From IMG/VR virus record IMGVR_UViG_3300028805_000073: a stretch of DNA of 64,000 bases. One strand, 5' to 3'. Each line of letters begins with the position of its first letter. Within the stretch, counting starts at the first letter, position 1. A model generated the notes under the pieces. That model searched no databases, was not told the DNA's origin, and saw nothing but the letters and a program-made list of their open reading frames with translations. The translations under genes and the position numbers were made by a program. This DNA is from a virus (lineage: Duplodnaviria > Heunggongvirae > Uroviricota > Caudoviricetes). Shown here piece after piece: positions 1-64,000 of the stretch.

Positions 1-1
1 A

Positions 2-397
2 ACTATGGTTCAAAGAAAGAATTATGAAAAATTTACTGTAAATGCTAAAGATGCTTCAGTATTTACAATGGATCCACAACTTGCATATCATATTAATCCT
101 GATAAAGCTGCTGCAATATTTGTAAAATATCGTAAGCCAATTGAAGAAATTGAAAATGGGTATATTCGTACATGTATTTATGAAGCCTATCGTACTTGTG
201 GAAATGCTTATACATCCGATTCTTTAATGAGTAATAGAGCAAAGTTTGAAGCTGATGTTCGTGCAAGACTTGAAAAATCATTAGCTGCTGAAGGTTTTAT
301 TGTTGATGAATTTACTAGTGCAATTACACCTCCACAATCACTTACAGAAATGATTGATGCCAAAAATAGGGCTAAAATGTATGGTCCACTTGCTTAA
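2..397 (+). CDS. SPFH/band-7 (prohibitin/HflKC-like) protein, 5' exon; partial (gene starts upstream of window; real 5' splice site probably ~340-390)
   Basis: ORF 5..397 has an SPFH-core-like sequence (KFEADVRARLEKSLAAEGFIVDEFTSAITPPQSLTEMIDAKNRAKM). No TAG. Frame stops at TAA 398-400, which lies inside the downstream intron. Confidence 0.55.
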   Translation, partial: TMVQRKNYEKFTVNAKDASVFTMDPQLAYHINPDKAAAIFVKYRKPIEEIENGYIRTCIYEAYRTCGNAYTSDSLMSNRAKFEADVRARLEKSLAAEGFIVDEFTSAITPPQSLTEMIDAKNRAKMYGPLA

Positions 398-1305
398 ACA
401 GCAAGTTAAAAACTCCTTTAATTTCTGGAAACTCCATATTTTTATTATTTTTATTTTTTGATATTTTAAGAATGAAAATAAATTTATTATGAAATAAAAT
501 ATAATAAATAGATAATTCTTTAAAAACAAAATTAAAAAATTAAAATTATGGACAACCAGAAGCCTACATTAAAAAATGCTTAGAAATATGTTATAGAACC
601 AGGAAAAACCTATGGTAACTATAAAGTTATTGAATCTACTATTATTCAAGGAAGAAAAAGTAGAGAAACAAGATGGATTTGTATATATCTGCCTACAGGA
701 GAACAGAAATTAAAAAGAGGAGCAGATTTAAAACAATTTTTAACTGGAGAAGAACAAGAGGAAGAGAATAAAAAATTAGTTGCAGAAAATAAACATCAAA
801 TGGGATTTAGAAACTATCTTTTTAGAACATCTAGAGATGGAGCTGAAAAGAGAAATCATGAGTTTAGACTAACCCAAGAAGAATTTGATGAAATTATTCA
901 AAAAGATTGCTACTACTGTGGAGAACATCCCAGACCAGCATCTAAAGAATTATTAGAAAAACGTGGAAATACTAAGCAACCAACATTTTATTATAACGGA
1001 ATTGATAGAATTGATTCTACAAAAGGATATTCTGTTGATAATTGTGTTCCATGTTGTCCTAAATGTAATTATATGAAAAATACTCTTTCTCAAAATGATT
1101 TTTATAAGCAGATTATCAAAATATATAATCATTTAAATTTAGGTTCAACGACTATCGAAAACACATCTAAATTAGATGGAAGTGAGTAGAGTACATCACA
1201 AGCTAATGGTGATGGAAACAAGGAGCACTCTAATATAGAGTGAAGATATAGTCTCAACTACTATGGTAACATAGTGCAGTTCATTAGAGAACGGATATAG
1301 TCTTG
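380..1305 (+). mobile_element. Group I intron (approximate ends) interrupting the SPFH gene and carrying an HNH homing-endonuclease ORF
   Basis: Conserved group I core elements occur in canonical order. P-like AATTTCTGGAAACTCC at 420-435. Q-like AACCAGAAGCC at 554-564. R-like GTTTAGACTAACCC at 862-875 (GACTA). S-like AAGATATAGTCT at 1243-1254, which matches the classical S consensus AAGATATAGTCC. Both flanks are halves of one SPFH protein, in different frames. Confidence 0.55.
548..1189 (+). CDS. HNH homing endonuclease (213 aa if started at ATG 548, with one in-frame TAG at 581-583; 129 aa if started at ATG 800 under the standard code)
   Basis: HNH motif near the C-terminus: CYYCGEHP...NGIDRIDSTKGYSVDNCVPCCPKCNYMKN. 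The frame is open from 548 to 1189 except for the single TAG. It overlaps the Q and R intron elements. Confidence 0.7.
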
Positions 1306-1584
1306 CGAACTATATTGAAGATATTGGTACAGGCTGCTTTGAAAGCAGAAAACGAAGTAAAAGAGGCTGAAGCTAACGCTAAAATTGCTGTGGCTAAAGC
1401 TAAGGGTAATGCAGATGCTATGAAGATTAAGGCTGATGGTGAAGCTTATTATAATCGTACTATTGCTGCATCATTAACTCAATATGTAGTAATGGAAGAT
1501 TGGATTGAAAAGTGGGATGGAAAGCTTCCTACTGTTCAAGGTGGTCAAGGTATGATGTTTGATATGTCTAAATTTGTAAAATAA
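1288..1584 (+). CDS. SPFH/band-7 protein, 3' exon (exact 3' splice site unknown, probably 1290-1330)
   Basis: The translation LKAENEVKEAEANAKIAVAKAKGNADAMKIKADGEAY...IEKWDGKLPTVQGG is the Ala/Glu-rich C-terminal tail typical of HflC/prohibitin. It lies immediately after the S element. The ORF finder had to use TTG as a start, which is consistent with this being an exon rather than an independent gene. Confidence 0.55.
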   Translation, partial: RTDIVLRTILKILVQAALKAENEVKEAEANAKIAVAKAKGNADAMKIKADGEAYYNRTIAASLTQYVVMEDWIEKWDGKLPTVQGGQGMMFDMSKFVK

Positions 1585-1889
1585 TGGGAATTTTAATTTT
1601 TTGGTTACAATATGTAATTGCTGGAATATTGTTATATCATATTCTAAGATGTTTATATATTAAAAAGGATGTAGATACTAGAAGTTATAAAACAAAATAT
1701 CATAAAACTGAAAATGATGAAAGATTAAAGCATCCACTTTGGTTATTAATAATCGCATTTGTGATATTAACTATTCCAGTCTTAAACATTTTTGCATTTG
1801 GATTATATCTTTCGCATAAATTAATATGTGAGGATGGAGAAGAATGTAATCCTTATTATTGTAAATCATCTTTCACTAAAAAATATTAA
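1584..1889 (+). CDS. Small membrane protein (2 predicted TM helices, Cys-rich C-terminus)
   Basis: ORF of 101 aa. Its start overlaps the SPFH stop (TAATG at 1582-1586). Hydrophobic stretches ILIFWLQYVIAGILLYHIL and LWLLIIAFVILTIPVLNIFAFGLYL. No TAG. Confidence 0.5.
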   Translation: MGILIFWLQYVIAGILLYHILRCLYIKKDVDTRSYKTKYHKTENDERLKHPLWLLIIAFVILTIPVLNIFAFGLYLSHKLICEDGEECNPYYCKSSFTKKY

Positions 1890-1897
1890 ATAAAAAA

Positions 1898-1941
1898 GGC
1901 TGTAATCACTGTAATTAGTGATTGCAGCCTTTATTTTTTTC
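1898..1941 (+). terminator. Rho-independent terminator
   Basis: Hairpin GGCTGTAATCACT-gtaatt-AGTGATTGCAGCC followed by TTTATTTTTTT. Confidence 0.6.
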
Positions 1942-1993
1942 TTAGACATTTTAAAATTTTTAAGATGAATAATTTATCATCTGAGATATAAAA

Positions 1994-2041
1994 ATTGATT
2001 GTAGACTTTTCTACATATCTTAAAATTAAAATTTTTATATA
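1994..2041 (+). promoter_or_regulatory. Putative sigma70-like promoter for the 2044 ORF (TTGATT ... TATAAT directly abutting the ATG; possibly a leaderless transcript)
   Basis: TTGATT at 1994-1999. TATAAT at 2036-2041 immediately 5' of ATG 2044. The region is AT-rich, so this is a weak call. Confidence 0.2.
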
Positions 2042-2043
2042 AT

Positions 2044-2490
2044 ATGAAAGATTTAGGATTTATAAAAAATTGTAATAATTGTAAACATAATATTTCTTTT
2101 GAAGAAAAAGATATAGAAAAAGAATATATTCCAATGGGTTATGTTATAATATATAAACCTATAGGAGAACAAAAACGAAGGTCTTTTTTATGTGAAAATG
2201 CTGAAATATTAGCTCAATATATTAATGAATTAATGTCTCCTCCAATGTATAGTAATTGTCATTGTTCTGGAGTTAAAATTCATAAAATATTAAAAATATT
2301 TAAATATAAACACTATATTATATGTCCAAATTGTAAAGAAAAAATATTATTTGAAGAAGGAACTTTTGATGCTGAAAGTCTAAGTCATGGAGCATTTGTT
2401 ATGAGAGGATGGTCAGGTTTTTATGAAAGTCCTTTTTTTAAACATTCCATTTGGTATAATATTCAATATAATGGAGAACATAACTTATAA
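2044..2490 (+). CDS. Hypothetical Cys-rich protein (148 aa, several CxxC pairs; possible zinc-binding)
   Basis: Intact ORF with CNNCKH, CHCSG and CPNCKEK. No TAG. Confidence 0.45.
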   Translation: MKDLGFIKNCNNCKHNISFEEKDIEKEYIPMGYVIIYKPIGEQKRRSFLCENAEILAQYINELMSPPMYSNCHCSGVKIHKILKIFKYKHYIICPNCKEKILFEEGTFDAESLSHGAFVMRGWSGFYESPFFKHSIWYNIQYNGEHNL

Positions 2491-2492: not shown

Positions 2493-2547
2493 AAACCCCG
2501 AAGCAGAACTCATTTTTGAGTTTTGTTTCGGGGTTATTTTTTACTAG
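2493..2547. terminator. Bidirectional hairpin terminator between convergent genes
   Basis: AAACCCCGAAGCAGAACTCA-ttttt-GAGTTTTGTTTCGGGGTT followed by a T-run. It sits between the + gene ending at 2490 and the - gene ending at 2541. Confidence 0.55.
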
Positions 2548-5500
2548 AATAATTCTGTTTTCTATCCAACTTTTGTTCCCAAGGTATTTAATTTGACCCA
2601 TTCCCATGCTGGAGTAGTTCCGCGTGTAGCAGCAGATGTCTTAATAATAGCATCATAAAAGTCTTGACTACCTTTTATTGCGTTTTTATATTGATTTACT
2701 ACATTAGTCATAGAACTAATTGAAAAAGGAGTCCATTGAACACCTCTACCAAATATTGATTTAGCAAAATTAAAGTCATCAGCAGAACTATCAAAAATTC
2801 CAACTCCTAGATTTATAGCAGTATTAGCCATAGCATTACCAAAGTTCTCATTAGAATGATTTTTAGCGAATTCTTTTTGTCCACTATGCATTAAAGAACT
2901 AGCAAATACTCCAAGGAAGAGTAACATAAACAGATCATACCATAACTAACGTAAATTAGCAGCAAATAATCTTCTTAGATCTGGATCTATGTTTTCACTA
3001 GTTAAAAGTTCTTTTACTCCTTTCAATCCTACATTTTCTAATCCTTCATAATTTCCATTAAATGCTTTTCCAAGATTAATTAAGGTAATTATAATTCCTT
3101 CCTGAGGACGTCCTTTCCATACTTGAATAGGTAGTCCTGTATTCTCGGTAGTAGGTTCTAACTAACCATCCTCTGTTACTTTCCAATACCATTTAACTCC
3201 ATCTTCTTCGTAATCAACATAATAACCTTCTTGAGTATAAGAACGCTACTAAATATATTGATTCTTTTTAGCAGACCAATATGTATTCATCTACATAGTT
3301 AATGCTCCAACAAATGTAGAATTAAACATAGATTTCTTTTCATGAGCATAATAACCATAAATTCTATCAGAGAAAGCTTTTCTTCCTTCAGATTCTCTAT
3401 TACTATAAGCTTTTGGTAAGGGTTTTGGATTTTTTATATCTAATATAAATAAACTTCCATCATCATTTCTTGCTCCCTCTTCTACAAGCTATCTAGCTAA
3501 TGTTATATAATTAGATTTAGCTCTGTTATATTCAGTAATATTAGACTAATCATTATTTGCAAAAGCAGCAAATCTTTTATCTTTAGTCCAATCATAAACA
3601 AGTTTTCCGTTTTTTACTGAATGTGCTTCAAAAGCTCCATCAGCTCTCATTTGAGCTATAAATATAGTCATTCTATTATAATAGTCAGGTCTAGATGAAA
3701 AACGGAATCCTGTATCCCAGAAATGAGTCATTAATCCAGTATTATCAGATTTAATTCTGTCGATATAAGTATTCATATCCATATCATTAATACCGTATTT
3801 CATATTTAATAATTCAGTAATACTTCTGTTATCACCATAATTTCCAAATAAATCTCCCATCACAAACTTCCAGGCCCATGTAAGATTTTCTTTAGTAAAG
3901 GCCATAGTTCCATCAGGCTATTTTACAAATAATTTTATATCCTACCAAATACCATCAAGGAACTAATATGTCTATCTTGGATTAAATGCTAATGCCAATC
4001 TAGAAGCCCATTTCATCATTTCATTAGTGATATCTCGTAAGGTAGCTTCCTAAGTAGTTCTATCTTCCATTGGCTAATTATGAATTTTAGTTTTAATATA
4101 GTCTAGAAGATACTATATATCATTAGTAAACTATGTATTTAAAATAGCTCCTTGAGAATTTAAATGAATTAATAAAGACTATATTACAGGAAATACTTTA
4201 TTTAACTCCTCAGCTAAAGTATAAGCTGAATGTTGTTTTAATAATAAAGTTTCTAGGTTATGCTCAAAGTATTCTTTGCCTCTTCTGTTAATTAATTCCT
4301 CTCTTCTTTCTTTATTTTTAGGATCATCTAAATCAGACATAGTATTAATAGCTTCCCACTATTCTCCTTTCTTTACTAATTCTGACTATTCTGATGATAA
4401 TAACTTTGTAACAGTATCGTCAATTTTCTTTTTTAATTCAACTCTTGTCTAAGCATTCCAAACAGAAAGATATTTAAATCTATTTCTAATAAAATTAGCA
4501 ATTCCTCCTCTCATCGCTACTTCTGAAGAAAAATCTCCTTTAACTAGAGGAGCTTTTAAATATTTTCCTTCTGTATCTTTTGCTATTAATTCTCCCATTA
4601 GATCTGGATTTTTCATCATTTTCTTTAAATCTATTCCATTTCCTCTTGTAGAATTTATTTTTATTATAGCATATTTCAAAAACTCCCTTTCTGCATCATC
4701 TAAAGCAACATTATTATCCCAAGGATTAACAAACTTTACATCAGATGATGTTTTATCATACATATTTTTGTATAGTTCAGTGGTCTGATTAGAAGTAATG
4801 TTCTATTGTATCCATCCAAAACCTTTGCTTTCTTTTAATTTTTTAACTCTTTCTCTTAATTCAGCATCAAATTGAGTTATAATATCTCTAGTATTCTGAT
4901 AAGCTATAGTTACCTGATTCGTTGCTTGGTTAAGAATAGCTGATTGTAAGGTTCCTGGATTATCTATCATTGTTCCACCAAGTCCTACTTTATCACTACC
5001 TAAATTAGTATTTAAATCAAACTTTTTCTGCTCATCCAACTGTTGAACCATCTTTACTCCAGATAATTCTGCAATAGCATATAGAATATCCTTATGTAAC
5101 TTATACTAAGGATTATTATCATCTAATTTATCTCTAATGTTTTGTGTTACTTCTGGATATTGTTCTACTAATTTCTTATCAATTTCTATTAAACTAGCTT
5201 TTAATTCCTCATTAGACTTTCCTTTCCAGTCTAATTTACTTACAGAATTTTTTAGTTCTCTATCTAATCCAGACATTCCATATTCATTACTTTTAGATAT
5301 TACCTCTACAAAATCCTATTTAAGTAAATCGACATAACTAGCCATTCTTATTACACCTTCTGAATTAGCATCTGTTTTAAAATTATTTTCTACTGAAGCC
5401 TAATTACATAATCTAGAGAAATTATAAAGTAATTGTTTATTAGGAACTTCTAATCCAGTTTGTTGAGAAGGACATATTAGTTTAACATTTCCAATTCCTG

Positions 5501-7541
5501 TAAATCTATCAGTAAATAAGTTTTTCATCTAATTCATAACTAATAAAGTTTCTATTAACTCAATATTACCTTTAGTAGAAACCATTGTTAATGAATCAGC
5601 TGAATTATGTGAAAGTTGATCTGACATAAATGCTCCTAATATATAATTTCCTTTTGGAAGTTTTACTTTCTATTTTGGATTATATAAAGCAGATACTCTA
5701 ACTATATCAATTAAATGAGTATTTTTATTTTCAAATAATAATATTCCAAATTGATCTAATAAACTATTTAAAGCAGAAGAATTTTGATCTGGAACAGGTT
5801 TCCAAACATCTGTGTTAGTATATTTTTCTAGCTAACTCTTTACATAATGAGAGTTTCTTTTACTTGATGTTCTAGAAGAACTAAATCCTCGTTGAATTTT
5901 TTCAACAGGATTCTCTCCTGAATTATAATAATAATTATTAAAGTCTTTTCTAATAGAGTTAGAAGTATTTATAGAGAAATTTTCATTATATTCATCTCTC
6001 TTTTTCATCTCTTCTACAATTTTAACAGTGGCTTCTTCCTAAGAATTAGCAGAAACTGTTATCATTCCATCATCATTATATTTATTAGGTTTAAAATAAT
6101 ACTTATTTTGTTGACTATCAAAATTTACTCCTCCGTTTTCTTCTATATAAGATTTATATCCTTCCAATGTAGTATCCTTTTCTTTAATAGGAAACATTTT
6201 GGACATTTCATCTTTTGTAGTCTTTATTACATCTTTTGTTTCTAATGATGTTTTATAATAAGCATTTTTAGGGAAAATCTAATCAAGATTTCCTTCTATA
6301 TTAGCCCTTTCATTACCGGTATCAGAGTTAGAAAGTTTTTGTAACATTGTTCCTCCTTCTTGATCTCCTAAACTAGATATTCCACTAAATGAAACTTTTC
6401 CATTTTCTAGTTTAAAATCTTCAAATTTTAAAGGAACTACAAATAACTCTATATCATTAGGAGGATTAACTCCTAGTGCTTTTAATATTTTACGATATGT
6501 TTCAAGCTAGTACTTAAAAGTTAAAATTTTAGCAGAATTATAATATAATGGATCATTATTAATATTGCTTGTAGTATAATCCTTTGGAGAACATTTAAAG
6601 TCTATTATTCCTACTTGTCCATTTTCTCCTACAGCTATTAAGTCAATCTTACCAATAATTTTAGTTATTTTTCCATTCTCTGTTTGAAACTAAACATCAC
6701 CTACTATTGGTTGTTCAGTTCTTATATAGGCATTCTATCCATACTTTTCACGTAACTCATTATCTAATTGGATACACTATTTTACTATACTTTCTAATAC
6801 CTGATCAGATATATATTTTTTAAATTCTGATCTAATATTATTTTTAAAATAATTTAATATTTCATTAGGAGCATCTTTTAATTGATAAAGATATTTTCCT
6901 TTTTTCTCTTTTCCATCAGGACTTTTATAAGGAATAGTATCTCTATAAAATCTAGAAAACATTTCGTGAACCAAATTACCACAAACTGCTTGCTAAGACC
7001 ACAATCCTCCTTTTCTTATACCCTTTTCTAATTCTCCCTCAATTCTATCTCTAATTTTATTAAGAGTAGCTTCATCAGTAACTCTATCATATCCTCCTGT
7101 AGAATTAGGAGTTAATAAGTCTGATATATACTATAATTCATAAGCATCAAAAGTTCCTATTTTATAAAGTTTGAACTTTTCATCCCAATAATTATCAGAT
7201 TTAAATATAGGAAATACCTATTCTGTAAATCTTCCAGGAATAGTGTGTATTAAATCAGTTACTGAAATATATGGATACTTTAATGTTCCTATATCATCAA
7301 GTTCTTCTGGTTCAACTTCTCTAGCTTCTTCAGCTGACTTTACCTGAATACCTGCTTTCTTTAACTTTTCATATTCTTCCTAAGTCTCCTAAAATCTTTT
7401 AGCATAATGTCTTTGAGTAGAAGTCATTGAATATACAATATCTCCTAATATCTAAACTGAATCTTCTGTATCTAACAGAAAATCATTTAGTTCTTCTTCT
7501 GAAGAAAATTCTTTTCCTTTAAAATTATATCTACAATTCAT
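2541..7541 (-). CDS. Giant virion/ejected protein G1 (1666 aa with TAG read as sense)
   Basis: A single reading frame is kept across ORF-track pieces 2562..2927, 3546..3905, 4449..4763, 4803..5051 and 6777..6974. Every interruption checked is an in-frame CTA (= TAG). ATG at 7541-7539 overlaps the upstream TAA (TAATG). The true stop is TAA 2541-2543. Confidence 0.6.
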
Positions 7542-8596
7542 TATTCACAATTTTCTGTTAGTTCATTACTTTTTAGATACTTCTCTTTTAAATTAGCTAA
7601 CATTCTATGAACAGTACTTTTATTTAAATGTCCTCCTGTTTCTATATTAAAAATGTTAGATTCTGTCATTTCTGCTAATTCTTTTAAAGAGCAATCATAT
7701 AAATTATCTAAAGATTTTACACTGTAATTTCCATCTAAAAATGTATCTAAATCTCTTTGTATGCAATATAACATTTCATTAAGTACATTATCATTTAGTT
7801 CTGATAATAAACTTTTTTGTCCTGTTAAATATTTAGAAAGTTCTTCTACAAATATTTCTTCATTAATATCACTTCTAGTTCTATTTGGATAGAACTAACT
7901 TCTATAATTATAATCAGATAATTGTTCTACAGAATTTACTAATTCATAGAACATATTACTATTCTATCTACTTAAAGTTCCTAGAAATAAATGTAACATT
8001 TCGTGGATAGGAGAATCAATTCCAGCATTATCTATATTAACATAAATGTTTCCATTATTAATAAACGCTTTTGCTCCAGAAACATTTAATCCTGGAAAAT
8101 CATCATCGGATGTTATTGGAATAATATTAATTCCATAATATTTTCTCATTTTGTCTAATGAGTCAATAATTCCACATTGAACTTGACTATCATTAGTAGC
8201 AGTTATAGAATATGGAGTACTTCCTATTCTATATTCACTTGGTCTTGGTTTTATTTCAAATATAGAAACTCCATTTATATCTGTTATTCTTACATCTAAA
8301 TCTCTATGAGTATCATTTATTGTAGCATTAGCTTCTTCTATAGAAGAACTACTTGTTTTATCTAAAATGTTCTATGTACTTTGATAAGTAGTTCCAGATT
8401 TAGTTGTTTTTAATCCCAAACTTTCTCTTAAATAAGGTTCCGAATTAGCATCAGGAATATTATCTAATTCTGGAAATATTCCATACAAATCTTGATATTC
8501 AGTACATATTTCTGCTACAGAATCAGGAGAAATGCCAGACATTTTTGACAAAGTCTGACATTTCTAAGATTCTTTTATTTCACAATAATTTGCCAT
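7541..8596 (-). CDS. HExxH zinc-metallopeptidase-like protein G2 (351 aa)
   Basis: Hand translation from ATG 8596 through pieces 7964..8149 and 7541..7774 gives ...GIDSPIHEMLHLFLGTL... (HEMLH). TAATG overlaps at both ends (8594-8598 and 7539-7543). It contains in-frame TAGs. Confidence 0.5.
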
Positions 8597-10180: not shown

Positions 10181-10182
10181 TC

Positions 10183-50804: not shown

Positions 50805-50806
50805 AC

Positions 50807-52250: not shown

Positions 52251-52292
52251 CTAGACTAGACCTATAAGGTCCGGTCTAGCTTTTATTTTATT
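52251..52292 (-). terminator. Strong hairpin terminator downstream of the 299-aa structural gene
   Basis: CTAGACTAGACC-tataa-GGTCCGGTCTAG (11 of 12 base pairs), followed on the - strand by a U-rich stretch. Confidence 0.55.
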
Positions 52293-52300
52293 AAATTAAA

Positions 52301-54584: not shown

Positions 54585-54593
54585 TTAATTACC

Positions 54594-55456: not shown

Positions 55457-55496
55457 CCTTTGCCATATTATTTCATTAACATAAAAATTTATATTA

Positions 55497-55532
55497 ATAC
55501 GGGCTCCTGAGTAAATCCCAGGAGAACCGTAT
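55497..55532 (-). terminator. Hairpin between two capsid-region genes
   Basis: ACGGGCTCCTG-agtaaatcc-CAGGAGAACCGT with AT/U-rich flanks. Confidence 0.35.
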
Positions 55533-55564
55533 TAACAGTATCTAATTAATTTTATTTTCTTTTA

Positions 55565-56430: not shown

Positions 56431-56439
56431 ACTACCATT

Positions 56440-57800
56440 TTGTGTAACCTTCTTCCGTATAACCTCTTATGTCGCCATAAAAGACTGACTATATTATTAA
56501 TTATTCTAAATATTTATAAATATGTTGTTTATGAGTTCTATTTGTTCCTGCTAAAACCTTCCAAACAGATGTTCCGTTTTCTTTTTCAGCAGCTGTAGCA
56601 GATTCATATTCTTTTACAAGATTTCCTTGTAAATCATATTTACCTACTCTACGTTTTTTATTTATTCCTTTTGGAATATTATAATTTTCAAGTTTTTCTA
56701 ATGACCATAAATATCCGTTTTCATCTGGAGATTTAAATTTTATCGATTTTGTTATATTGGTTTTGCATTCTAATTCAGCTTCTTGTTGAGTTTCATATTC
56801 TTTATTAAAACTTCCATCAGAATTATATTTAAAAACTCGTCTGGATTTTATATATTCAGTTCTTGCTTTATCATAAGACTCTGCTTTTATATAAGATAAG
56901 TAATACTTATTATGTACACAATTTCCTAAAATACAAGCTTTTCTTATAGTAGTTGTTGCAATTCCTGATTTTCTTTCTGCTTCAGCTTGTGTTTTAAATC
57001 CTCCTAAATATTGTCCTTTTAAATTATAAAAATAAATTTTATTAGAATGATTTAATCCTAAATTATAATTAGTTAAATCTAATTTTTCTAATTTATCTGT
57101 AGACCAAAAATAATTTTTAGCTTTAGCTTTTTTTCTTACTGCATAAGAAATTAAAGTGTAATCACAATTTAATTGTAAAGCAGCATCAGCAAAACTTTCA
57201 TATTCATTTAAATAATTTCCATTTTCATCATATTGAAAAACTTTTATTCTTTGAGAGATTAAACATCCAGCAATTCCTCCTAATATCATATTATATACAT
57301 CTGAACGTTCTAAAAACTTTTCATTAACAATTTGTTCTTCTAAATCAGAAGCTTCTTCCAAAGTATTAAAAATAGCTAATGTTTTTCTTTTAAAATTCTT
57401 TGGACCATATTTTTTAACTGCTGCTTGAAAAGCTGTTTTAGCATACATATATGTATAAGGTTGTGTGGCTATTATTCCATTTCCTAAATAACCATCAAAA
57501 ATATCTGGATTTTCTGTTTTATGTAATCCCACATATATTTTTCCATTAATTAAATTTGTTGTTTCATAAACAATATATTTCCAATTTTTTTCCATATTTA
57601 ATATAATTATTTACTCTTTCGATAAAAATTATCTACTCCTTACGGATAGTCGATGAACCTTATTAATAATCCTCTGCTATATTAGAGTGAAAATTAATCT
57701 TGGCTTCTGATTATCTCCGAAGAGATTTCCCAGAAATTAAGTAAATTTTCTTAGTCAAATAATTTAAAATATTATTCTAACTAAGGCACAAAGTAATTTA
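56440..57800 (-). mobile_element. Group I intron (approximate ends) with a GIY-YIG homing endonuclease in P8, interrupting the putative capsid gene
   Basis: On the - strand: P AATTTCTGGGAAATCTC (57722-57738), Q AATCAGAAGCC (57702-57712), UUCG-tetraloop hairpin ATCTCTTCGGAGAT (57714-57727), R GGTTCATCGACTATCCG (57643-57659) with GNRA loop CCGTAAGG, then the endonuclease ORF, then S AATATAGTCAG (56485-56495). The order P-Q-R-ORF-S is canonical. Confidence 0.6.
56501..57595 (-). CDS. GIY-YIG homing endonuclease with three C-terminal DNA-binding repeats (364 aa)
   Basis: KYIVYETTNLINGKIYVGLHKT (GIY...YVG). Three ~45-aa repeats of the form YDENGNYLNEYESFADAA.../KYNSDGSFNKEYETQQEAE.../KYDLQGNLVKEYESATAAE... 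It is intact in the standard code, with zero TAG. Confidence 0.8.
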   Translation of the reverse strand: MEKNWKYIVYETTNLINGKIYVGLHKTENPDIFDGYLGNGIIATQPYTYMYAKTAFQAAVKKYGPKNFKRKTLAIFNTLEEASDLEEQIVNEKFLERSDVYNMILGGIAGCLISQRIKVFQYDENGNYLNEYESFADAALQLNCDYTLISYAVRKKAKAKNYFWSTDKLEKLDLTNYNLGLNHSNKIYFYNLKGQYLGGFKTQAEAERKSGIATTTIRKACILGNCVHNKYYLSYIKAESYDKARTEYIKSRRVFKYNSDGSFNKEYETQQEAELECKTNITKSIKFKSPDENGYLWSLEKLENYNIPKGINKKRRVGKYDLQGNLVKEYESATAAEKENGTSVWKVLAGTNRTHKQHIYKYLE

Positions 57801-58333
57801 TGCATCTCAGGCATATTAGCAGTAATCCATCTTGTCTTATCACCAGGTTGACAAGCACTTAAATCGAGAATGCTTTCATAGTTGTTATCAACTAATCTTA
57901 CTACAACTTCCCAATAATTGTCACCTTTTCTAACAGGACGTGCTACTACCATGCACTACTGACCTGATCCTTCAATCTTGAAAATATCATATTTTTCATA
58001 ATATCTTTCTCTAAATGCCATTATGATTTCAGTTCCACCTGCTCCATCACCATCAGGTACAGCAGCAAATTCAATTCTCTTGATATAATTTGTTTCAATA
58101 TCAAAATCATATTGGAAAGCATTTAAAGATTGATATTTATTTCCACTACCTTTTAAGTTAGTATAGAATACATTTTTAAGAGATTCGGTAATGAAAGATG
58201 CTGTTAAGTCAGTATACATTCTTGAAACAATTCCAAGACGTTGTGGCTTAACTCCAAGGTACTTATAGAAATCTTCATAAGTACGTGTATCACCCATAGT
58301 AGGAATGTTAGAAACAAAACTAGCTATTTTCAT
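57764..58333 (-). CDS. Putative major capsid protein, 5' exon (its last ~10-20 codons and the TAA are probably intron-encoded)
   Basis: 189-aa ORF with one TAG. The TAA at 57764 lies only 26 nt upstream of the intron P element, so the 5' splice site must be inside this ORF. It follows the scaffold-like gene directly. Confidence 0.45.
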
Positions 58334-58349
58334 ATTCAGTTATTCATTT

Positions 58350-59387
58350 TTATTCATCATCGTCATCTAAGTCATTTATTGTTGTATATGAACGATAATG
58401 TTGTGGTTTCGTATTGTTTTTCTTATTTGAATTATCTATTACTACAGTAGGTCTAGTTTGTACTCCTTTTTTCCCGTCTTCCAAACCTCTCTTATATTGG
58501 TTATCAGACACCAATTTTATCTATTGTGCGTAATAATCGGAAATACTATTAAGAGCCTCCTCACCATTAAGGATAAACCAAGCAGCTTTAGTTAAGGTTT
58601 CTGGATCTTGTAAGGCTTCAAAAAGATAGTTCTTTCCAGACTGATCTCTTGATAACATAAACTCAGCAAGTTCTTCTCTATCAGCATCCTCAAAGTTTAG
58701 ATCAAAGCTTCCAACAGAGTTAAAATTACTTATAGCGTCAATCACTTGAGACTAATATTCTTGAAATTGTTCAGCTTCTTTTTGTTCTCTTTGAGCTTGC
58801 TCTTGTTGAGCTTGTAAATCTTCTCTTTCTTTATACTCTTTACGAATTCCTTCTACTTGTTTCTTGAAAAATTCTTCGTTAGATTTAACAGTATTTAATG
58901 CCTAAACAGCTTCATCTTCACTTAATTCTCCAACTCTAGATTCTAAATCAAGTAAATATACTTCATCATCAGATAAATCATCTATTTTATACTATGGAGT
59001 AACTTCTACTTGTTCTCCCTTAATAGACTCTAAATATTCAACTGGAGATAATTTACTTTCTCTGATTTGATTTATTAAATTGATTTCATCTTCTGTTAAA
59101 TCATTATTGTTATTATCTTCTTGTTCTGTTTCTAAAGGCATATTTAAAATATTAACTTTTTCTTCATTGGATAAGTCATTCCAACTTCTTTCAACTAAAT
59201 TTCCATTTTCATCTTCAAAGTTAATTTTATTTAAATCATCTATACCTCTAGTTTTTAAAAAATCTGACATAAAATCTCCTTCAGACTCCTAACCAGCAGG
59301 TGGAGTTACGGGAGGTTCTTGAATTTCTTCCTATTGACCAGGTTCAAGAATGTCGTCATCATCTAAATCATCAATTCCTATTGCCAT
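58350..59387 (-). CDS. Scaffolding-like acidic coiled-coil protein (345 aa)
   Basis: Pieces 58992..59270 and 58521..58745 are joined by TAGs. Hand translation runs from ATG 59387 (MAIGIDDLDDDILEPGQQEE...) to ...DLDDDE*. It is acidic, with an EEDLQAQQEQAQREQKEAEQ heptad region. Confidence 0.5.
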
Positions 59388-59475
59388 ATTTATTATATTT
59401 TTAATTAAATTGAAAACAATAAAGTTTCATATTAAAAATACTACTCCTTTATTGTTTTCAAAAAATTTTTATTTA

Positions 59476-62400
59476 TTATCCACAGAAGAACTAATACCAC
59501 CGATTATCTCCATTTACAACAGCTTTAATAAACATCTGTGGTCCATAACCTATTGATATTGAAACATCCTAATTATTATCACTAGCTTTTACAATAGTAG
59601 CAGTACTAATATCTTTAACACTAACTGTTACTCCACTCTATTGAGTAGATTTTACATAAACAACTTCAGAATATCCAGTTATATTTTCTGAATAAGGCAA
59701 ATAATAATTTCCCTAAGTAGTTATAAGGTTAAATCCACACTTTAAAGTATTATTTGTATTTGGAGTAGAACTAGATGGACTACTTGGAAAATTCTGTGAT
59801 ATATATAATGAATCCGTAGTTAATAACTATAAATTTGATCTACCATATACTCTTAAAGCATCAGTACTATAGTCCGGAGTTCCAGAAATTGCTCCATTCT
59901 AATACAATTCTATATATAAAGGAGTATTTATAATACCAGCTGAACCAAGTGAACTATTTGTTCCAGTATTAGGAATAAAATAAACAACTTTTTTACCGCC
60001 ATTATTACCATACTATCCATAAATTTGAATATTTCCAGATGATAGATTAGAACCAGCTCGGTCAGAAAGAGCTCCCGCATGATAATCACTTGTCTATAAA
60101 TGATCATTATAAATATCAAACCCACCTATAGTTCCTCCAGTAGCTATTATATTACCTTCAACATTAACACCTCCAGAAGAATCTATTAAGAATTTATTTT
60201 GAGCAGCACCTTGTTCTCCAGTTAATAAATTAACCCACCAATTTGGTTCAAACGAATTTGTGAAAGTGAGTGTAAGTTTAAAATTAATACTTGTTGTTGA
60301 ATTTGTTCCAACTCTTATATATCCATCATAACTTGAAGTTCTAGAGCCAGTATTAGGATTAGCAGTTGTTGTATTTACATTAACTATAGATGGATTATCA
60401 TGTCCATCTACTAATACACAATTTAAGACTCCAGATGTTGTAATTCTTTCTAATGTTGCATCAATTTTAACTCCGCTTGGAATATTCAAAGGTATTTTAT
60501 AACTCGATTCATTTGTACAGCTTCCAGTAAATACTATATTATTAGTAGGAGCACAAATAAATTTAGTATATGCTGGAACTCCAACAGATATTGTTGTTCC
60601 ATTATTATACTAAGTAGAACCTATTTTACCATTTGTAGAGATTATATAATCTCCACTTATAATAGCACTACCAAATTTAGCAAAGTTACCAAAATATGCT
60701 TCTGCCATATAAAACTTATTTTCATCCATCATCTATTTCCAGTGAGAATCAGCATAGATATTTTCGACTTGAGTTGGCCATCCAGTAGCAGTACGACTAC
60801 CATTACCATCTAATTCTGAATCTAATACATATAAAACATAAAATTTTTCATTATATTTTATGTAAGGAGCTTGATACTTTGTTGCTTTACAATTAGTTAA
60901 TAAAATATTATCTTTTCCATATTCTCCAACATAATAATACATTTTTCCAGCAGAAGCAGGTTGTTGAGTTATGTCTGGAATAGCAGGAACAAGTGCTCCT
61001 ATATCACTCCATTGTTCAGGTTTTATACTGTCAATACTACCATTAGAAGCAGCCGTAGCATGAATTTCATATAATGTCTAATTTCCAGAAGGAGGTGATA
61101 ATTTCCAATTTCCAATATATTCGTTTGTAGTTCTTTCATCTGTATATAATTTTTTACTTTCAAAATTATAATATAAAATACTATTAGGTTTGTTATCATT
61201 AGTTAGAACTTGAGTAGACCTCTAATATAAAAAGACACTTGCTATATTATAAAGCATATTTCCAGCAGCATCAACTCTTATAGGTTCACTCCATTCAGTT
61301 TTATTTATATCATCACTTATCGTCTAACCGTATGCTATAGCAGTAGTCATATATAGATCATTACTACCTTCTGGTATATTAATAGACCATCCATTGTTTT
61401 TACTACTATCATTCCAACTTAAAGTTTTATTTTTAAAATTATAATTAGATTTACTATCTATTCCAGTTTCAGTTAATTCTAATGAAGATCTTTTATAAAG
61501 TCTTATTGTAGCCTAAGAATATCCTGGTTCGTTTGGTTTTAAACAATAGATTTTTCCAATATCTACTTTTTCACTATTATAATATAAGCAAATATTATAT
61601 CCTCCTTCTTTATATGGTAATGGATTTGTTTCTTTCATCTATAAACCTGTATAATAACCAGACTAAGAAGGAGAAACTCCCTGGAAATATCCATCTTCAG
61701 TATCAATATTATAATAAATACCTTGAGTATCAGAAATGTCAATAGAATAATCACTATTACCAGGACGAGCTCCACTAGGATTATAAACACGTACTCCAAA
61801 ATTTCCTTGTGATCCATCATTTCCTATTTTTTTACATTCTATTCTTATAGTATTATTGCTGTCTGATACTTCTCCATTACTATTATAATGTATAACATTA
61901 TCATAAATAAGTAATTTAGGAAACGATCCATCGTTTGAAAGATCTGATATATTTAAATTAGAACATATTGTAACATCAAAAGAAGTTTCTTCTACTATTA
62001 ATTGTAAAGTATAATGATATAATCCCGTAGATAGTTTATTAATAGTTCTGCCTGATTCTTTATAGATAACAAATATATTACTTTCTGTTGTCTATCCCTA
62101 TTCAATCAAGTTATATTGATTATTATTAGTTTCAGTGTATAATTTTAATCCATCTGGAAGAACAATATCTGTTACTTTAAATTTACAATTCATAGTAACA
62201 TTAGAATTTGCTCTATATACAGTTATAGAATTACGTGTAGCTGCTTTTAATCCTGCATCATTAGTTGTATTATCATCAACATAACTACATGGATTATTTT
62301 GAGTCATAATGTATGCTTCTGTTCCCTATCCCTCTCCAGCAGGACCTCTATCACCTCTAATTGAAAAATCAACAGTTTCATTATCAACTATTTTTAGTTC

Positions 62401-64000
62401 CCCATTAATTTTTTTATATAATTCTACTGTTATATATTCAATTGTTTTAACAAGGTTAGATGTATTTGATAAACTAGATAAATCATATGTTATAATTGTA
62501 TTGTTAATTCCATAAGTAAAATTTATATTATTAATTGTATCTCCATTTGAATTTTTAATTATAACTCCAAATTCATTATCCTATAAATTACTAGTACCAT
62601 TTTTAATAACTAAATCTGAAATAGAATTATCATTAATTTTTAACGCTGATACCTATATAGATGATGTAGATCTAAATTTATAATTGCTTGTTTCAGATTC
62701 TCTTTCTACACCTAATGTATTAGGACTAACATTAAGTGAATATGATTCTCCATTACTTATGTCTATTACTAAGAAATTTTGTAATTTTGATGCAGATATA
62801 TTATCTTTTTCAATTGTATAGGTAATCTCTGTAGATCCTACTGAAAAATTATCATTACCTTGTTTAATTAAAACAAAACCTTTAAAATTACTATCAATAG
62901 TAGTATTAGATCCCCATTCTAAAACACTATAATTACTTACAGTTCCATTGTTATTTATACTTGTAATTAATGCTGGTTTAATTTTACTAATATTATCTCC
63001 ACTACAATCAATTTTTACAACAGAACCATTTGTAATATCATCAACACCATTCCATAATTTTACATTTGTTTTAGAAGCAGTTTTTAGTGAATTTAACGTT
63101 GTCTAATCATCAACAACTATATTATCATTATCTATAGTTGCTGAATATCCACTTGACGAAAATATTCTCCATACTTTTGGATTAGAAAATTCTCCCCAAT
63201 AAGAATCTGTATCATTATTTTGATTTCTTTTACGTTTTCTAGTTGAAAAATATTCTATCGGATTATTAATACTAAGATTTTCTGAAGGATCATCACTCCA
63301 TCCATCTAGTATGAAATCATCGTTTTGATATTCAACACTATTATTAATTTCTGAAATATTAATTTCAACTGTTGTATTACTATCTTTATTTTTTCCTCTA
63401 TATTTTCCATTACTTGATATAGAAGGAACTGAAGCATTTTTTCCTTTTAAATAATATATATATTCATAACCATCTCCATCAAGTCCGTTTCTTCCATAAT
63501 GAGACCATATAATTGGACCAAATAAATATGTATATTCATTATTCTATTTAGTAAATCCTACAATCCATTCATAAGGAACACTACTATCAACTCCATATGG
63601 ATGATCATTCCAATAACCAGTAACACTATCCTCATCAGCATAATTAGTTCCATTATAAGGTTTTCTTGGATTATGACTTTCTATTCCTTTTACTATATTT
63701 ACCCAATCAGCATTAGTATTATTGTTTCCAGGCTTATTGTTACCCTATGTTCTGCAATATATGTAATTAAAGGATTCACTATCACTTCCAGTTCCAGAAG
63801 TTGTTCCATCAGAACCTATTCTATAAGGACCAAACCAGACTATATTATTAGTTGCAATAAATTCATCTCCCTGTTTATTAGCATATATCATATATAGGCT
63901 TTTACCAGATTCAACAGTTGTATTTTGTTCATTATTCCAACCAGTAGGAATTCCTTGAGTTGATTTTATAGTCTAATATTCACTATCTGCATCACTCTAA
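59476..64000 (-). CDS. Tail-fibre/receptor-binding-like large protein, 3' portion (gene continues beyond the window end)
   Basis: Frame 0 across pieces 60094..60489, 60733..60942 and 62098..62307. Rich in Asn/Thr/Gly with repetitive beta-strand-like segments (GGTIGGFDIY, NVEGNIIATGG). Double stop TAATAA at 59473-59478. Confidence 0.5.

What the first reader, a model, noticed from the sequence alone, without database searches (positions are those of the whole stretch)
1..64000. Bimodal TAG usage: homing endonucleases, three capsid-region genes and the + strand module are TAG-free while their neighbours are TAG-dense
The following have zero TAGs: the GIY-YIG endonuclease (364 aa), ORF 55565..56287 (240 aa), ORF 54594..55379 (261 aa), the 299-aa protein at 52301..53200, and about 600 codons of + strand genes at 1-2490. 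The giant genes, the lysin (~13 TAGs in 251 aa), the tail genes and the small structural ORFs carry about 4-5% TAG. This could reflect temporal control, with genes translated before the suppressor is available. It could reflect avoidance of an inefficiently decoded codon in very highly expressed proteins. It could also reflect recent horizontal acquisition of the endonucleases. Recoding of the lysin fits the idea that code switching gates lysis timing.
Basis: seen in the sequence. Interest (0 to 1): 0.7.

Follow-up and report, generated by a model that had tools for sequence, protein, structure and literature searches.

The report
Uneven TAG use in recoded crAss-like phage
This is part of a crAss-like phage that reads TAG as glutamine in its late genes; TAG use is uneven between genes but graded rather than two-class, for three mostly ordinary reasons: a standard-code early block, TAG-poor highly expressed capsid genes, and a TAG-free intron-borne homing endonuclease.

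Summary
The window is a TAG→Gln recoded crAss-like phage segment. ORF coverage is 40% under table 11 and 98% with TAG as sense. ORF 55565..56287 is the end of exon 2 of the major capsid gene, which a 1,344-nt group I intron carrying the GIY-YIG endonuclease splits. With corrected models, late genes run continuously from 0 to 4.5% TAG (mean 2.1%, not 4–5%). They are over-dispersed (P≈1e-4) but not bimodal.

There are three separate causes:
- **Early block:** the + strand module is the end of the standard-code early block (known pattern).
- **Capsid genes:** three capsid-region genes are TAG-poor (TAG share of Gln codons 0.17 vs 0.46). This recurs in 6 of 7 recoded lineages and tracks high-expression codon bias.
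- **Endonuclease:** it has no TAG. Across this endonuclease family in TAG-recoded phages, 36 of 52 clusters have none.

Homologous endonucleases in TGA-recoded relatives are full of sense TGA. So translation before the suppressor appears is not an intrinsic requirement of this endonuclease family. Selection and slow two-step accumulation remain unresolved. Overall this is an incremental addition to known biology.

The parts
5..373 (+). SPFH/Band_7 gene, exon 1 (5' end may be cut by the window edge); 0 TAG
   Evidence: The joined exons hit Pfam PF01145 Band_7 (46 bits). Seven relatives, L058-L064, have the gene continuous, with residue 123 joined to exon 2.
374..1326 (+). Group I-type intron (953 nt) carrying an HNH endonuclease ORF. 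It follows a T and ends in G.
   Evidence: It is absent from all 7 relatives. Junction sequences were read. Window ~1137-1273 matches a profile of 19 Rfam-validated group I introns at E=2.5e-12. There was no Rfam hit in the window itself.
548..1243 (+). HNH endonuclease ORF (CYYCG...CCPKCN motif). It has in-frame TAGs at 581-583 (codon 12) and 1187-1189. The second is probably the true stop.
   Evidence: Read from the sequence. The second TAG lies inside the ribozyme-core match. No relatives were found in viral contigs.
1327..1584 (+). SPFH/Band_7 gene, exon 2; 0 TAG
1584..2490 (+). Two small + strand genes: a membrane protein at 1584..1889 and a zinc-ribbon protein at 2044..2490. Both have 0 TAG.
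2494..2535 (.). Hairpin terminator (19-bp stem followed by a T-run) in the gap between the convergent early (+) and late (-) blocks
2541..64000 (-). TAG-recoded late block of 27 genes, including giant ORFs of 1,199-3,583 codons. Pooled TAG is 2.10% of codons and 46% of Gln-like codons.
34603..35559 (-). Treble-clef zinc-finger repeats with a PD-(D/E)XK-like C-terminus. This is a promiscuous mobile endonuclease-like gene. It has 9 TAGs among 18 Gln-like codons, which is average.
   Evidence: Pfam DUF4379 and DUF723. Relatives at 40-50% identity occur in very diverse viral contigs, including giant-virus MAGs.
35731..38281 (-). Lysis neighbourhood of four genes: a small membrane protein (35731..35973), the lysozyme (35970..36776; 11 TAG in 268 aa), a DUF192 protein (36727..37329) and a tail-tip-domain protein (37481..38281; 12 of 14 Gln-like codons are TAG). 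The block's TAG share is 0.69.
   Evidence: Pfam Phage_lysozyme2, DUF192 and Phage_tail_C.
52301..53419 (-). g52301, a 372-aa probable auxiliary capsid protein; 2 TAG (codons 20 and 58)
54594..55466 (-). g54594, a 290-aa conserved protein of unknown fold immediately downstream of the MCP; 1 TAG (codon 7)
   Evidence: 1,064 homologues. The N-terminus is conserved. No fold match was found.
55565..56455 (-). Major capsid protein gene, exon 2 (296 codons plus stop; 2 TAG)
   Evidence: Relatives have a continuous gene. The exact junction was read. The joined protein hits Pfam PF23898 Crass_capsid at E=1.2e-14.
56456..57799 (-). Group I intron (1,344 nt) in the MCP gene. It follows a T and ends in G. 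The endonuclease ORF sits between the P7 strand (CGACTA) and the P7' strand (ATATAGTC).
   Evidence: An ORF-deleted mini-intron matches a profile of 19 Rfam-validated relatives' introns at E=6e-14 across the deletion junction, and 0 of 200 shuffles scored. Rfam found 19 Intron_gpI hits in relatives' MCP regions. Rfam found nothing in the window.
56501..57595 (-). GIY-YIG/NUMOD1 homing endonuclease, 364 aa; 0 TAG, 12 CAA, 0 CAG
   Evidence: PHROG 314 homing endonuclease at E=1.7e-21. Pfam NUMOD1 at 48 bits, and SegE_GIY-YIG below its cutoff.
57800..58333 (-). Major capsid protein gene, exon 1 (178 codons; 1 TAG)
58350..59387 (-). Acidic 345-aa protein upstream of the MCP, scaffold-like by position and composition only; 6 TAG among 27 Gln-like codons (0.22)
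   Evidence: there was no family match.

Best explanation
The window joins the 3' end of a standard-code, presumably early, + strand block to the TAG->Gln recoded late block of a crAss-like phage. TAG density differs between genes for three separate reasons.

1. Code partition by block. The + strand genes are read in the standard code, where TAG is a stop. The - strand late genes need a TAG suppressor. The partition is shown here. The link to timing is inferred from published work on crAss-like phages.

2. Codon selection within the late block. CAA and TAG are near-equal synonymous choices, and about 46% of Gln-like codons are TAG. The most abundantly made capsid proteins (MCP, the gp36-like auxiliary capsid protein, g54594 and, to a lesser degree, the scaffold-like protein) hold TAG at a low equilibrium frequency. 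The likely reason is that decoding by the suppressor is slower or riskier than decoding CAA by the host tRNA-Gln. The pattern is shown; the cause is inferred.

3. The endonuclease. The GIY-YIG gene inside the MCP group I intron has no TAG because lineages of this mobile gene family rarely carry TAG. The likeliest cause is that they start TAG-free and gain TAG only slowly, by the two-step route CAA->CAG->TAG (CAA->TAA is lethal). Weak selection for suppressor-independent expression may reinforce this. It is not a timing device, because homologous endonucleases in TGA-recoded relatives are full of sense TGA.
For: **Recoding**
- ORF coverage is 40% under table 11 and 98% with TAG as sense.
- Window TAGs most often sit opposite Gln in standard-code orthologues, and they interchange with CAA/CAG in close relatives.

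**Block partition**
- Convergent blocks meet at a hairpin terminator.
- The + module has at most 1 sense TAG in about 671 codons, against 14 expected (P=1e-5).
- Relatives' early blocks are TAG-free, with TAG at ORF ends. L062 shows the same boundary.

**Capsid genes**
- The three genes have 6 TAG among 35 Gln-like codons (0.17 vs 0.46, P=3e-4).
- Their TAG share is lower than in other late genes in 6 of 7 recoded lineages, significantly in 4.
- TAG sites turn over quickly: 1 shared site with L009, and the window's 3 MCP TAGs are all CAA/CAG in L001. Low density therefore reflects a low equilibrium, not inheritance.
- The same genes have the highest NNC and AAG usage, in all 7 lineages. Spearman rho between NNC fraction and TAG share is -0.61 (P=8e-4).
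- They are richer in G-ending codons yet poorer in TAG.

**Endonuclease**
- 0 TAG in 364 codons.
- Among 52 clusters (70% identity) in TAG-recoded loci, 36 have zero TAG, 8 have 1-2 and 8 have 4-10. The pooled share is 0.10, against 0.32 in other ORFs.
- Composition does not explain this. TTG/(TTG+CTA) is 0.53 in endonucleases and 0.58 in flanks, and rho with G3 is 0.05.
- Homologues in TGA-recoded loci have a TGA share of about 0.81 against 0.46 in flanks. Nine of 15 such TGAs sit opposite conserved Trp.
Against: - No suppressor tRNA was found in the window or in 24 related loci, so the decoding mechanism is inferred.
- Expression levels are inferred from protein identity and codon bias, not measured.
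- In two lineages (L041, L009) the capsid depletion is weak, and in L042 it is absent.
- For the endonuclease, the slow-accumulation argument rests on a rough rate estimate.
- The window-type clade has stayed in TAG-recoded phages down to 56% identity with only 2 TAGs gained. The flanking genes' Gln sites are 27-43% discordant over the same comparisons. That could equally reflect purifying selection.
Confidence: 0.6

Rival explanations
1. The endonuclease is kept TAG-free by selection, so that it can be translated without the suppressor. That would allow it to act early, cutting a co-infecting intron-less genome while DNA is still replicating. Or it would keep it functional after moving into phages that use the standard code.
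For: - TAG share is 0.10 in endonucleases against 0.32 in neighbouring ORFs, across 52 clusters.
- The window-type clade stays TAG-free at 56-88% identity, while neighbouring Gln sites are 27-43% discordant.
- Composition does not explain the depletion.
- The same intron family occurs at the same MCP site in standard-code and TAG-recoded phages: the L041 and L048 copies are 63% identical.
- One copy, in L056, has TAG as the last codon before TAA, which looks like a tandem stop.
Against: - Homologues in TGA-recoded relatives, including the 58-63% identical L074 and L071 copies, carry 1-5 sense TGA and almost no TGG. This family therefore tolerates full dependence on a suppressor.
- Eight of 52 clusters in TAG-recoded phages carry 4-10 TAGs.
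- No cross-code pair closer than 65% was found, and TAG-free copies are no closer to cross-code relatives than TAG-rich ones (P=0.17).
- Borges et al. found an intron endonuclease enriched in the recoded stop (10.1101/2021.08.26.457843).
Confidence: 0.2
2. Temporal gating inside the late block: the TAG-poor capsid genes and the endonuclease are translated before the suppressor accumulates, and the TAG-rich tail and lysis genes afterwards.
For: - TAG share is graded, from the capsid module (0.17-0.33) to the lysis neighbourhood (0.69).
- Borges et al. proposed that recoding delays lysis proteins.
Against: - MCP, g52301 and g54594 each contain 1-3 TAGs, so none can be completed without suppression.
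- All lie in one co-directional, tightly packed gene array.
- The codon-bias correlation points to expression level rather than timing.
- Giant genes with 63-82 TAGs require near-perfect suppression in any case.
Confidence: 0.1
3. Mosaic history: the capsid module or the endonuclease arrived recently from a standard-code relative and has not yet accumulated TAG.
For: - Standard-code relatives with the same gene order exist (L010-L052).
- The endonuclease's synonymous divergence (0.20-0.24) is somewhat lower than that of flanking genes (0.27-0.38) in the same genome pairs. That is compatible with horizontal spread by homing.
Against: - The MCP is only 55-62% identical to standard-code relatives.
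- The capsid depletion is shared by lineages whose TAG sites have fully turned over, and the few MCP TAGs themselves turn over.
- The capsid genes have more G-ending codons, which should speed TAG gain rather than slow it.
- No close cross-code endonuclease relative was found.
Confidence: 0.07
4. There is no real heterogeneity: the differences are sampling noise plus wrong gene boundaries.
For:
- Individual capsid genes reach only P about 0.01-0.015.
Against: - Chi-square heterogeneity is P=1.2e-4, and P about 3e-3 without the endonuclease.
- The pattern is replicated in independent lineages.
Confidence: 0.03

Closest known systems
Alternatively coded crAss-like phages with intron-rich capsid genes (Yutin et al. 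2021, PMC7886860)
   Same: - TAG->Gln reassignment is confined to the late-gene block.
- There are two oppositely oriented gene blocks.
- Group I introns with endonuclease ORFs split the MCP.
- Related contigs are large, about 130-210 kb.
- Code switches occur between close relatives; both TAG-recoded and standard-code relatives were found here.
   Different: - That paper noted one Zeta-group MCP without stop codons, and intron ORFs containing TGA in another phage. It did not quantify per-gene recoded-codon usage.
- The subgroup of this window was not determined, because no terminase lies in the window.
Gene-family preference for recoded stop codons (Borges et al., bioRxiv 10.1101/2021.08.26.457843)
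   Same: - The method is the same: share of TAG vs CAA/CAG, or TGA vs TGG, per gene family.
- Early genes are in the standard code.
- Lysis-cassette genes and a neighbouring tail gene are enriched in the recoded stop. Here the lysis neighbourhood is 0.69 vs 0.45.
- An intron endonuclease enriched in TGA was reported for Agate phages. The TGA-recoded relatives here show the same.
   Different: - That work reported only enriched families.
- Here the notable cases are depleted ones: capsid genes, and the intron endonucleases of TAG-recoded phages.
- The endonuclease bias has opposite sign in the two recodings.
Phage T4 group I introns with GIY-YIG endonucleases (td intron / I-TevI), from general knowledge
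   Same: - A GIY-YIG endonuclease ORF with a NUMOD-type DNA-binding region sits in a peripheral loop of a group I intron that interrupts an essential phage gene.
- The intron follows a U and ends in G.
   Different: - The host gene is the capsid gene of a phage with a reassigned stop codon.
- The ORF lies between the P7 and P7' strands.
- Splicing and homing were not tested.
Avoidance of poorly decoded codons in highly expressed genes (translational selection on codon usage), from general knowledge
   Same: The genes for the most abundant virion proteins depart from the genome's mutational codon bias (more NNC and AAG) and use the suppressor-dependent codon least.
   Different: - The disfavoured codon is a reassigned stop, read by a phage-supplied suppressor in competition with release factor 1.
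- Expression levels were not measured here.

Membership tests
TAG->Gln (code 15) recoded crAss-like phage | Reading frames are restored when TAG is read as sense, but not when TGA is | tested here: met
   ORF coverage is 40% (table 11), 98% (TAG sense) and 43% (TGA sense).
TAG->Gln (code 15) recoded crAss-like phage | In-frame TAG corresponds to Gln in homologues | tested here: met
   - Gln is the commonest residue opposite window TAGs in standard-code orthologues (19 of 102 site/residue combinations).
- TAG interchanges with CAA/CAG more often than with any other codon class in close relatives.
- MCP exon-2 codon 8 is TAG where four relatives have CAA or CAG.
- Q58 of g52301 is at least 90% conserved.
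TAG->Gln (code 15) recoded crAss-like phage | Crassvirus-type major capsid protein | tested here: met
   Pfam PF23898 Crass_capsid, 54 bits against a cutoff of 27.
TAG->Gln (code 15) recoded crAss-like phage | Phage-encoded suppressor tRNA (anticodon CUA) | tested here: inconclusive
   No tRNA was found in the window or in 24 related loci, apart from one tRNA-Arg. Only parts of the genomes were available.
TAG->Gln (code 15) recoded crAss-like phage | Recoding is confined to the late block, and the early block is in the standard code | tested here: met
   The + module is nearly TAG-free. Relatives' + blocks are TAG-free with TAG at ORF ends. Expression timing itself was not tested.
Group I intron carrying a homing endonuclease gene | A precise insertion into a gene that is continuous in relatives | tested here: met
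   MCP: L001, L004 and L009-L035 are continuous, and the junction is exact to the base. SPFH: seven relatives are continuous.
Group I intron carrying a homing endonuclease gene | Match to the Rfam group I intron model (RF00028) | tested here: not met
   No hit in the window at the gathering threshold or at E<=1. The likely reason is that the 1.1-kb ORF splits the core. Nineteen hits above the gathering score were found in relatives' MCP regions.
Group I intron carrying a homing endonuclease gene | Ribozyme core homologous to validated group I introns | tested here: met
   The ORF-deleted MCP mini-intron matches a profile of the 19 validated introns at E=6e-14 across the deletion junction, and 0 of 200 shuffles scored. 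The SPFH intron's 3' core matches at E=2.5e-12. These are sequence profiles only; base-pair covariation was not tested.
Group I intron carrying a homing endonuclease gene | The 5' splice site follows U and the intron ends in G | tested here: met
   MCP...ATGCAT|AAATTAC...TATACG|GAAGAAGG. SPFH...AGGGCT|AAAATG...GATATTG|GTACAGG.
Group I intron carrying a homing endonuclease gene | Self-splicing and homing activity | not testable with these tools
   This needs RNA data or biochemistry.
GIY-YIG homing endonuclease | GIY-YIG catalytic domain plus a DNA-binding module | tested here: met
   - PHROG 314 'homing endonuclease' at E=1.7e-21.
- NUMOD1 at 48 bits against a cutoff of 22.8.
- SegE_GIY-YIG at 16.9 bits, below its cutoff of 25.
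- The KYIVY...IYVG motif is invariant in an 11-member alignment.
Preferential recoding of lysis genes (Borges et al.) | Lysis genes use the recoded stop more than the standard synonymous codons, relative to other late genes | tested here: inconclusive
   The lysozyme alone has 11 TAG among 20 Gln-like codons (0.55 vs 0.46; P=0.28). The four-gene neighbourhood is 29/42 = 0.69 (P=0.002). Relatives of this region could not be retrieved.
phicrAss001 auxiliary capsid protein gp36 family (for g52301) | Fold similarity to chain 7qof_a | tested here: inconclusive

The most novel reading that the evidence does not exclude
Intron-borne homing endonucleases in stop-codon-recoded phages are under code-specific selection. 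In TAG-recoded crAss-like phages they are kept free of TAG, so they can be made without the suppressor (early action, or spread into standard-code relatives). In TGA-recoded relatives the same family is driven to use TGA almost exclusively. If so, the genetic code switch shapes how selfish elements spread between co-infecting phages.
Probability: 0.2. Interest if true: 0.6.

Novelty: new variant of a known kind. Interest (0 to 1): 0.4.

Why it matters
The main value is corrective. Apparent TAG-free genes in recoded phages can be artefacts of calling ORFs from internal ATGs and of missing introns. Once genes are delimited properly, the two-class picture disappears.

Two modest additions to published work remain:
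- Inside the recoded late block, the most abundant capsid proteins use the reassigned codon least, and this holds across lineages. That suggests decoding by the suppressor carries a cost, which limits how far a phage can recode.
- The same endonuclease family is TAG-poor in TAG-recoded phages and TGA-rich in TGA-recoded phages. Complete genomes could use this contrast to separate mutational paths from selection in the spread of reassigned codons.

Tried and rejected
**Searches that found nothing useful**
- PHROGs on ten capsid-region proteins recognised only the endonuclease.
- Sequence search of the PDB with MCP, g52301 and g54594 found nothing meaningful.
- Foldseek against the PDB found no significant match for either model.
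- A megablast of 14 kb against GenBank phages found no match. Protein searches there hit only two unannotated records.
- No tRNA was found in the window, and only one tRNA-Arg in 24 related loci.
- Rfam found nothing in the window at any threshold. A profile of relatives' introns run on an ORF-deleted construct resolved this.
- Relatives of the lysozyme and of the HNH endonuclease could not be retrieved from viral contigs. So the lysin enrichment and the HNH's first TAG could not be checked comparatively.
- Using g34603 to reach the lysis region returned unrelated viruses. That did show the gene is promiscuous.

**Explanations considered and rejected**
- A-ending codon preference as the cause of the endonuclease's TAG-poverty. 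The analogous TTG/CTA pair shows no difference, and TAG share does not track G3.
- Recent immigration from standard-code phages. No cross-code relative exceeds 65% identity, and TAG-free and TAG-rich copies do not differ.
- My earlier P-values for 'all conserved Gln sites are CAA/CAG'. They reject only the idea that the endonuclease sits at the same equilibrium as its neighbours. They do not reject neutral accumulation from a TAG-free start.

Full report
**1. What the window is**

The sequence is 28% G+C. Under table 11 it has only nine ORFs of 150 aa or more. Stop-to-stop frames of at least 100 codons cover 40% of the window under table 11, 98% if TAG is read as sense, and 43% if TGA is. Nearly all genes lie on the minus strand, from 2541 to the right edge, tightly packed. 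They include giant ORFs of 1,199 to 3,583 codons. A short plus-strand module occupies 1..2490. No tRNA and no Rfam family was found in the window.

The protein obtained by joining two ORFs that flank the GIY-YIG gene matches Pfam's Crassvirus major capsid protein, at 54 bits against a cutoff of 27. Related viral contigs are 90-210 kb long. This is therefore a crAss-like phage that reads TAG as an amino acid.

TAG means Gln:
- In standard-code orthologues, Gln is the commonest residue opposite window TAGs.
- In close recoded relatives, TAG interchanges chiefly with CAA/CAG.
- One MCP TAG sits where four relatives have CAA or CAG.

**2. Gene models: three of the four TAG-free ORFs are fragments**

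ORF 55565..56287 is not a gene. tblastn against 57 related loci shows that ORFs 57764..58339 and 55565..56500 are two exons of the MCP gene. In L001, L004, L009-L035 and others the gene is continuous and in one frame.

At base level, exon 1 ends ...ATGCAT at 57800 and exon 2 starts GAAGAAGG at 56455. L001 reads ...ATGCAT|GAAGAAGG... without interruption. The 1,344-nt insertion (57799..56456) follows a T, ends in G, and carries the 364-codon GIY-YIG/NUMOD1 ORF.

Rfam does not recognise this insertion. It does find 19 group I introns above the gathering score in the MCP regions of five relatives. A profile built from those 19 introns matches an ORF-deleted version of the window's intron at E=6e-14, running across the deletion junction. 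None of 200 shuffles scored. The ORF lies between the CGACTA and ATATAGTC elements, which are adjacent in relatives' introns. That placement explains why Rfam misses it.

The spliced MCP has 474 codons and 3 TAGs.

ORF 52301..53200 is the 3' part of a 372-codon gene with TAGs at codons 20 and 58. An identical 372-aa protein is in the database. The first seven residues are invariant or nearly so in 45 homologues, and Q58 is at least 90% conserved. ORF 54594..55379 belongs to a 290-codon gene with a TAG at codon 7 and a conserved N-terminus.

**3. Per-gene statistics**

With corrected models, the 27 minus-strand genes hold 424 TAGs in 20,175 codons (2.10%). TAG makes up 46% of Gln-like codons, meaning TAG+CAA+CAG.
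- Giant genes carry 1.2-3.3% TAG.
- The maximum is 4.5%, in a tail-tip-domain protein where 12 of 14 Gln-like codons are TAG.
- The lysozyme has 11 TAGs in 268 aa (4.1%).

The rates form a continuum. It is over-dispersed: chi-square P=1.2e-4, and P about 3e-3 by Monte Carlo without the endonuclease. It is not bimodal. The low tail holds the endonuclease (0%), g54594 (0.34%), g52301 (0.54%) and the MCP (0.63%).

**4. The plus-strand module**

The first and third plus-strand ORFs are two exons of an SPFH/Band_7 gene. The gene is continuous in seven relatives. In the window it is split by a 953-nt insertion (374..1326) that follows a T, ends in G and carries an HNH ORF. The 3' region of the insertion matches the group I profile at E=2.5e-12.

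The module's only in-frame TAGs are two in the HNH ORF. The second, at 1187-1189, lies inside the ribozyme-core match and is probably the true stop. The first, at codon 12, is unexplained.

The module therefore has at most one sense TAG in about 671 codons, against 14 expected at the late-gene rate (P=1e-5). It converges on the late block at a 19-bp hairpin with a T-run (2494..2535).

In relatives, the same-strand block upstream is TAG-free over more than 10 kb. The rare in-frame TAGs sit at ORF ends, as real stop codons would. L062 shows the same boundary next to a TAG-rich minus-strand gene. This is the published arrangement: early block in the standard code, late block recoded (PMC7886860; 10.1101/2021.08.26.457843).

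**5. The capsid genes**

Pooled, MCP, g52301 and g54594 have 6 TAGs among 35 Gln-like codons (0.17 vs 0.46, P=3e-4).

The low density is not simply inherited:
- The window shares 20 of its 50 aligned TAG sites with L001 and one with L009.
- The window's three MCP TAGs are all CAA/CAG in L001.
- Even so, the trio's TAG share is lower than in other late genes in six of seven recoded lineages. The difference is significant in L001, L006, L053 and L036, weak in L041 and L009, and absent in L042, which has few data.

The same genes have the highest C-ending usage in two-fold pyrimidine codons and the highest AAG/Lys usage, in the window and in all seven lineages. Among 26 minus-strand genes, NNC fraction correlates with TAG share at rho=-0.61 (P=8e-4).

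So these genes are richer in G-ending codons generally, yet poorer in TAG. That rules out composition as the cause. It also argues against a historical lag, because more CAG intermediates should speed TAG gain. The pattern is what translational selection on very highly expressed genes would produce.

On protein identity:
- The MCP is the most abundant virion protein (established knowledge).
- g54594 has no recognisable fold.

All three genes contain TAG, so none can be made before suppression is active.

**6. The endonuclease**

Zero TAG in 364 codons with 12 CAA is significant against the neighbours' rate (P=4e-4).

The pattern is general. In MCP introns of recoded relatives, the paralogues hold 7 TAGs against 260 CAA/CAG, mostly in truncated copies. 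A wider scan with an alignment of 11 copies gave 52 clusters at 70% identity in TAG-recoded contexts:
- 36 have no TAG, 8 have 1-2, and 8 have 4-10.
- The pooled TAG share is 0.10, against 0.32 for other ORFs.
- Only 16% of size-matched ORFs are TAG-free (Fisher P=2e-12).

I tested four explanations.

*Composition.* Endonucleases use G-ending codons about half as often as their flanks (0.09 vs 0.16). But the exactly analogous pair TTG/CTA is used alike (0.53 vs 0.58), and TAG share does not correlate with G3 (rho=0.05). Rejected.

*Need for standard-code translation* (early action, or portability between codes). Homologues in TGA-recoded loci carry 1-5 in-frame TGA and almost no TGG. By my tally this is about 58:14 (0.81), against about 125:146 (0.46) in their flanks. 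These include copies 58-63% identical to the window's. Nine of 15 such TGAs align with conserved Trp of the window protein. This family therefore tolerates full dependence on a suppressor, as Borges et al. saw for an Agate-phage intron endonuclease. This weakens the idea but does not exclude it for TAG.

*Recent arrival.* The same-site endonuclease in L005, L007, L041, L053 and L056 is 56-88% identical to the window's, with 20-40% synonymous codon differences. That is close to, though somewhat below, the flanking genes. None of its conserved Gln sites is TAG, while 27-43% of such sites in flanking genes are discordant. No cross-code relative closer than 65% exists in the sample, and TAG-free copies are no closer to cross-code relatives than TAG-rich ones. 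So it is not a recent arrival in any simple sense.

*Slow accumulation.* CAA can reach TAG only through the rare CAG codon, because TAA is lethal. TGG reaches TGA in one step that AT pressure favours. A rough rate estimate (my inference) suggests a TAG-free founder could stay TAG-poor for a long time while TGG-to-TGA conversion goes to completion. This fits both recodings and the tail of TAG-rich copies. I cannot separate it from weak purifying selection.

I take slow accumulation from a TAG-free start, possibly with weak selection, as most likely, and I rate the selection-only rival at 0.2.

**7.

'Homing endonucleases are TAG-free' fails as a generalisation:
- The HNH ORF has at least one in-frame TAG, inside an otherwise TAG-free block.
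- The zinc-finger/PD-(D/E)XK-like gene at 34603..35559 has relatives scattered across unrelated viruses, including giant-virus MAGs, yet it has an average TAG share of 9/18.

The lysozyme's TAG share of Gln codons is near average (0.55; P=0.28). Its high per-codon density mostly reflects Gln richness. The four-gene neighbourhood (membrane protein, lysozyme, DUF192 protein, tail-tip protein) is enriched as a block (29/42 = 0.69 vs 0.45; P=0.002). That agrees with Borges et al., who reported enrichment in a lysozyme-type amidase, a spanin and a neighbouring tail gene. Relatives of this region could not be retrieved for replication.

**8. Comparison with what is known, and verdict**

The following are published (PMC7886860; 10.1101/2021.08.26.457843; PMC9523058):
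- late-block recoding;
- code switches between close relatives;
- intron-rich MCP genes;
- gene-family bias in recoded-codon use;
- metaproteomic proof of TAG->Gln in crAss-like phages.

In the papers I searched I did not find two things:
- a report of depletion of the reassigned codon in the capsid genes across lineages;
- a report of the opposite-sign bias of one endonuclease family under the two recodings.

The finding is a real but graded heterogeneity, with mostly ordinary causes. It was described partly on the basis of mis-delimited ORFs. I score interest at 0.4 and classify it as a new variant of a known kind.

Noticed in passing
window 374..1326 (+), within the SPFH gene 5..373 + 1327..1584: A second endonuclease-bearing group I-type intron splits an SPFH/Band_7 gene in the standard-code block. 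All seven relatives retrieved lack it. Its HNH ORF has an in-frame TAG at codon 12 (581-583), upstream of what looks like a genuine N-terminal domain, and no alternative start follows until codon 88. The ORF is therefore either decaying or translatable only with the suppressor. The second case would resemble the Agate-phage intron endonuclease described by Borges et al.
   Followed up: partly
L071, L074, L098, L115, L117-L121, L124, L125, L129, L135, L136, L138: GIY-YIG endonucleases homologous to the window's, in loci that look TGA-recoded, use TGA for Trp almost exclusively (about 58 TGA to 14 TGG). Their flanking ORFs are near 46% TGA. The TGAs align with conserved Trp positions.
   Followed up: yes
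window 34603..35559 (-): This gene has three treble-clef zinc-finger repeats and a PD-(D/E)XK-like C-terminus. Its relatives, at 40-50% identity, occur in very diverse viral contigs, including giant-virus MAGs, and none is syntenic. It looks like a promiscuous free-standing mobile endonuclease gene, yet it is recoded like its neighbours (9 TAG among 18 Gln-like codons).
   Followed up: partly
L053-L057 and L041, MCP region: Some relatives carry up to about six insertions in the single MCP gene. These include ORF-less group I introns of about 190-260 nt that Rfam recognises (19 hits in five loci). Different relatives have endonuclease-bearing introns at different MCP sites.
   Followed up: partly
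L056 3971.. (+): One full-length endonuclease ORF in a TAG-recoded locus has TAG as its last codon before TAA. It could be a tandem stop, which would mean TAG is read as a stop for that ORF.
   Followed up: no
window 2494..2535: A 19-bp G+C-rich hairpin followed by a T-run sits exactly between the convergent standard-code and recoded blocks. It is likely a bidirectional terminator.
   Followed up: partly
window 34284..34613 (-): A small ORF encodes a low-complexity Pro/Glu/Gly/Ala-rich protein (PEGGAPAEGAPEGG repeats). At 42% G+C it is far above the window's 28%. It overlaps another open frame at 34280..34573.
   Followed up: no
L010-L035, L038, L040, L043-L052 versus L001, L004, L006, L009: Phages with the same capsid-module gene order and 55-62% MCP identity use the standard code and have higher G+C (35-37%, against 28-33% in the TAG-recoded relatives). 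This fits published reports of code switches over short phylogenetic distances.
   Followed up: partly
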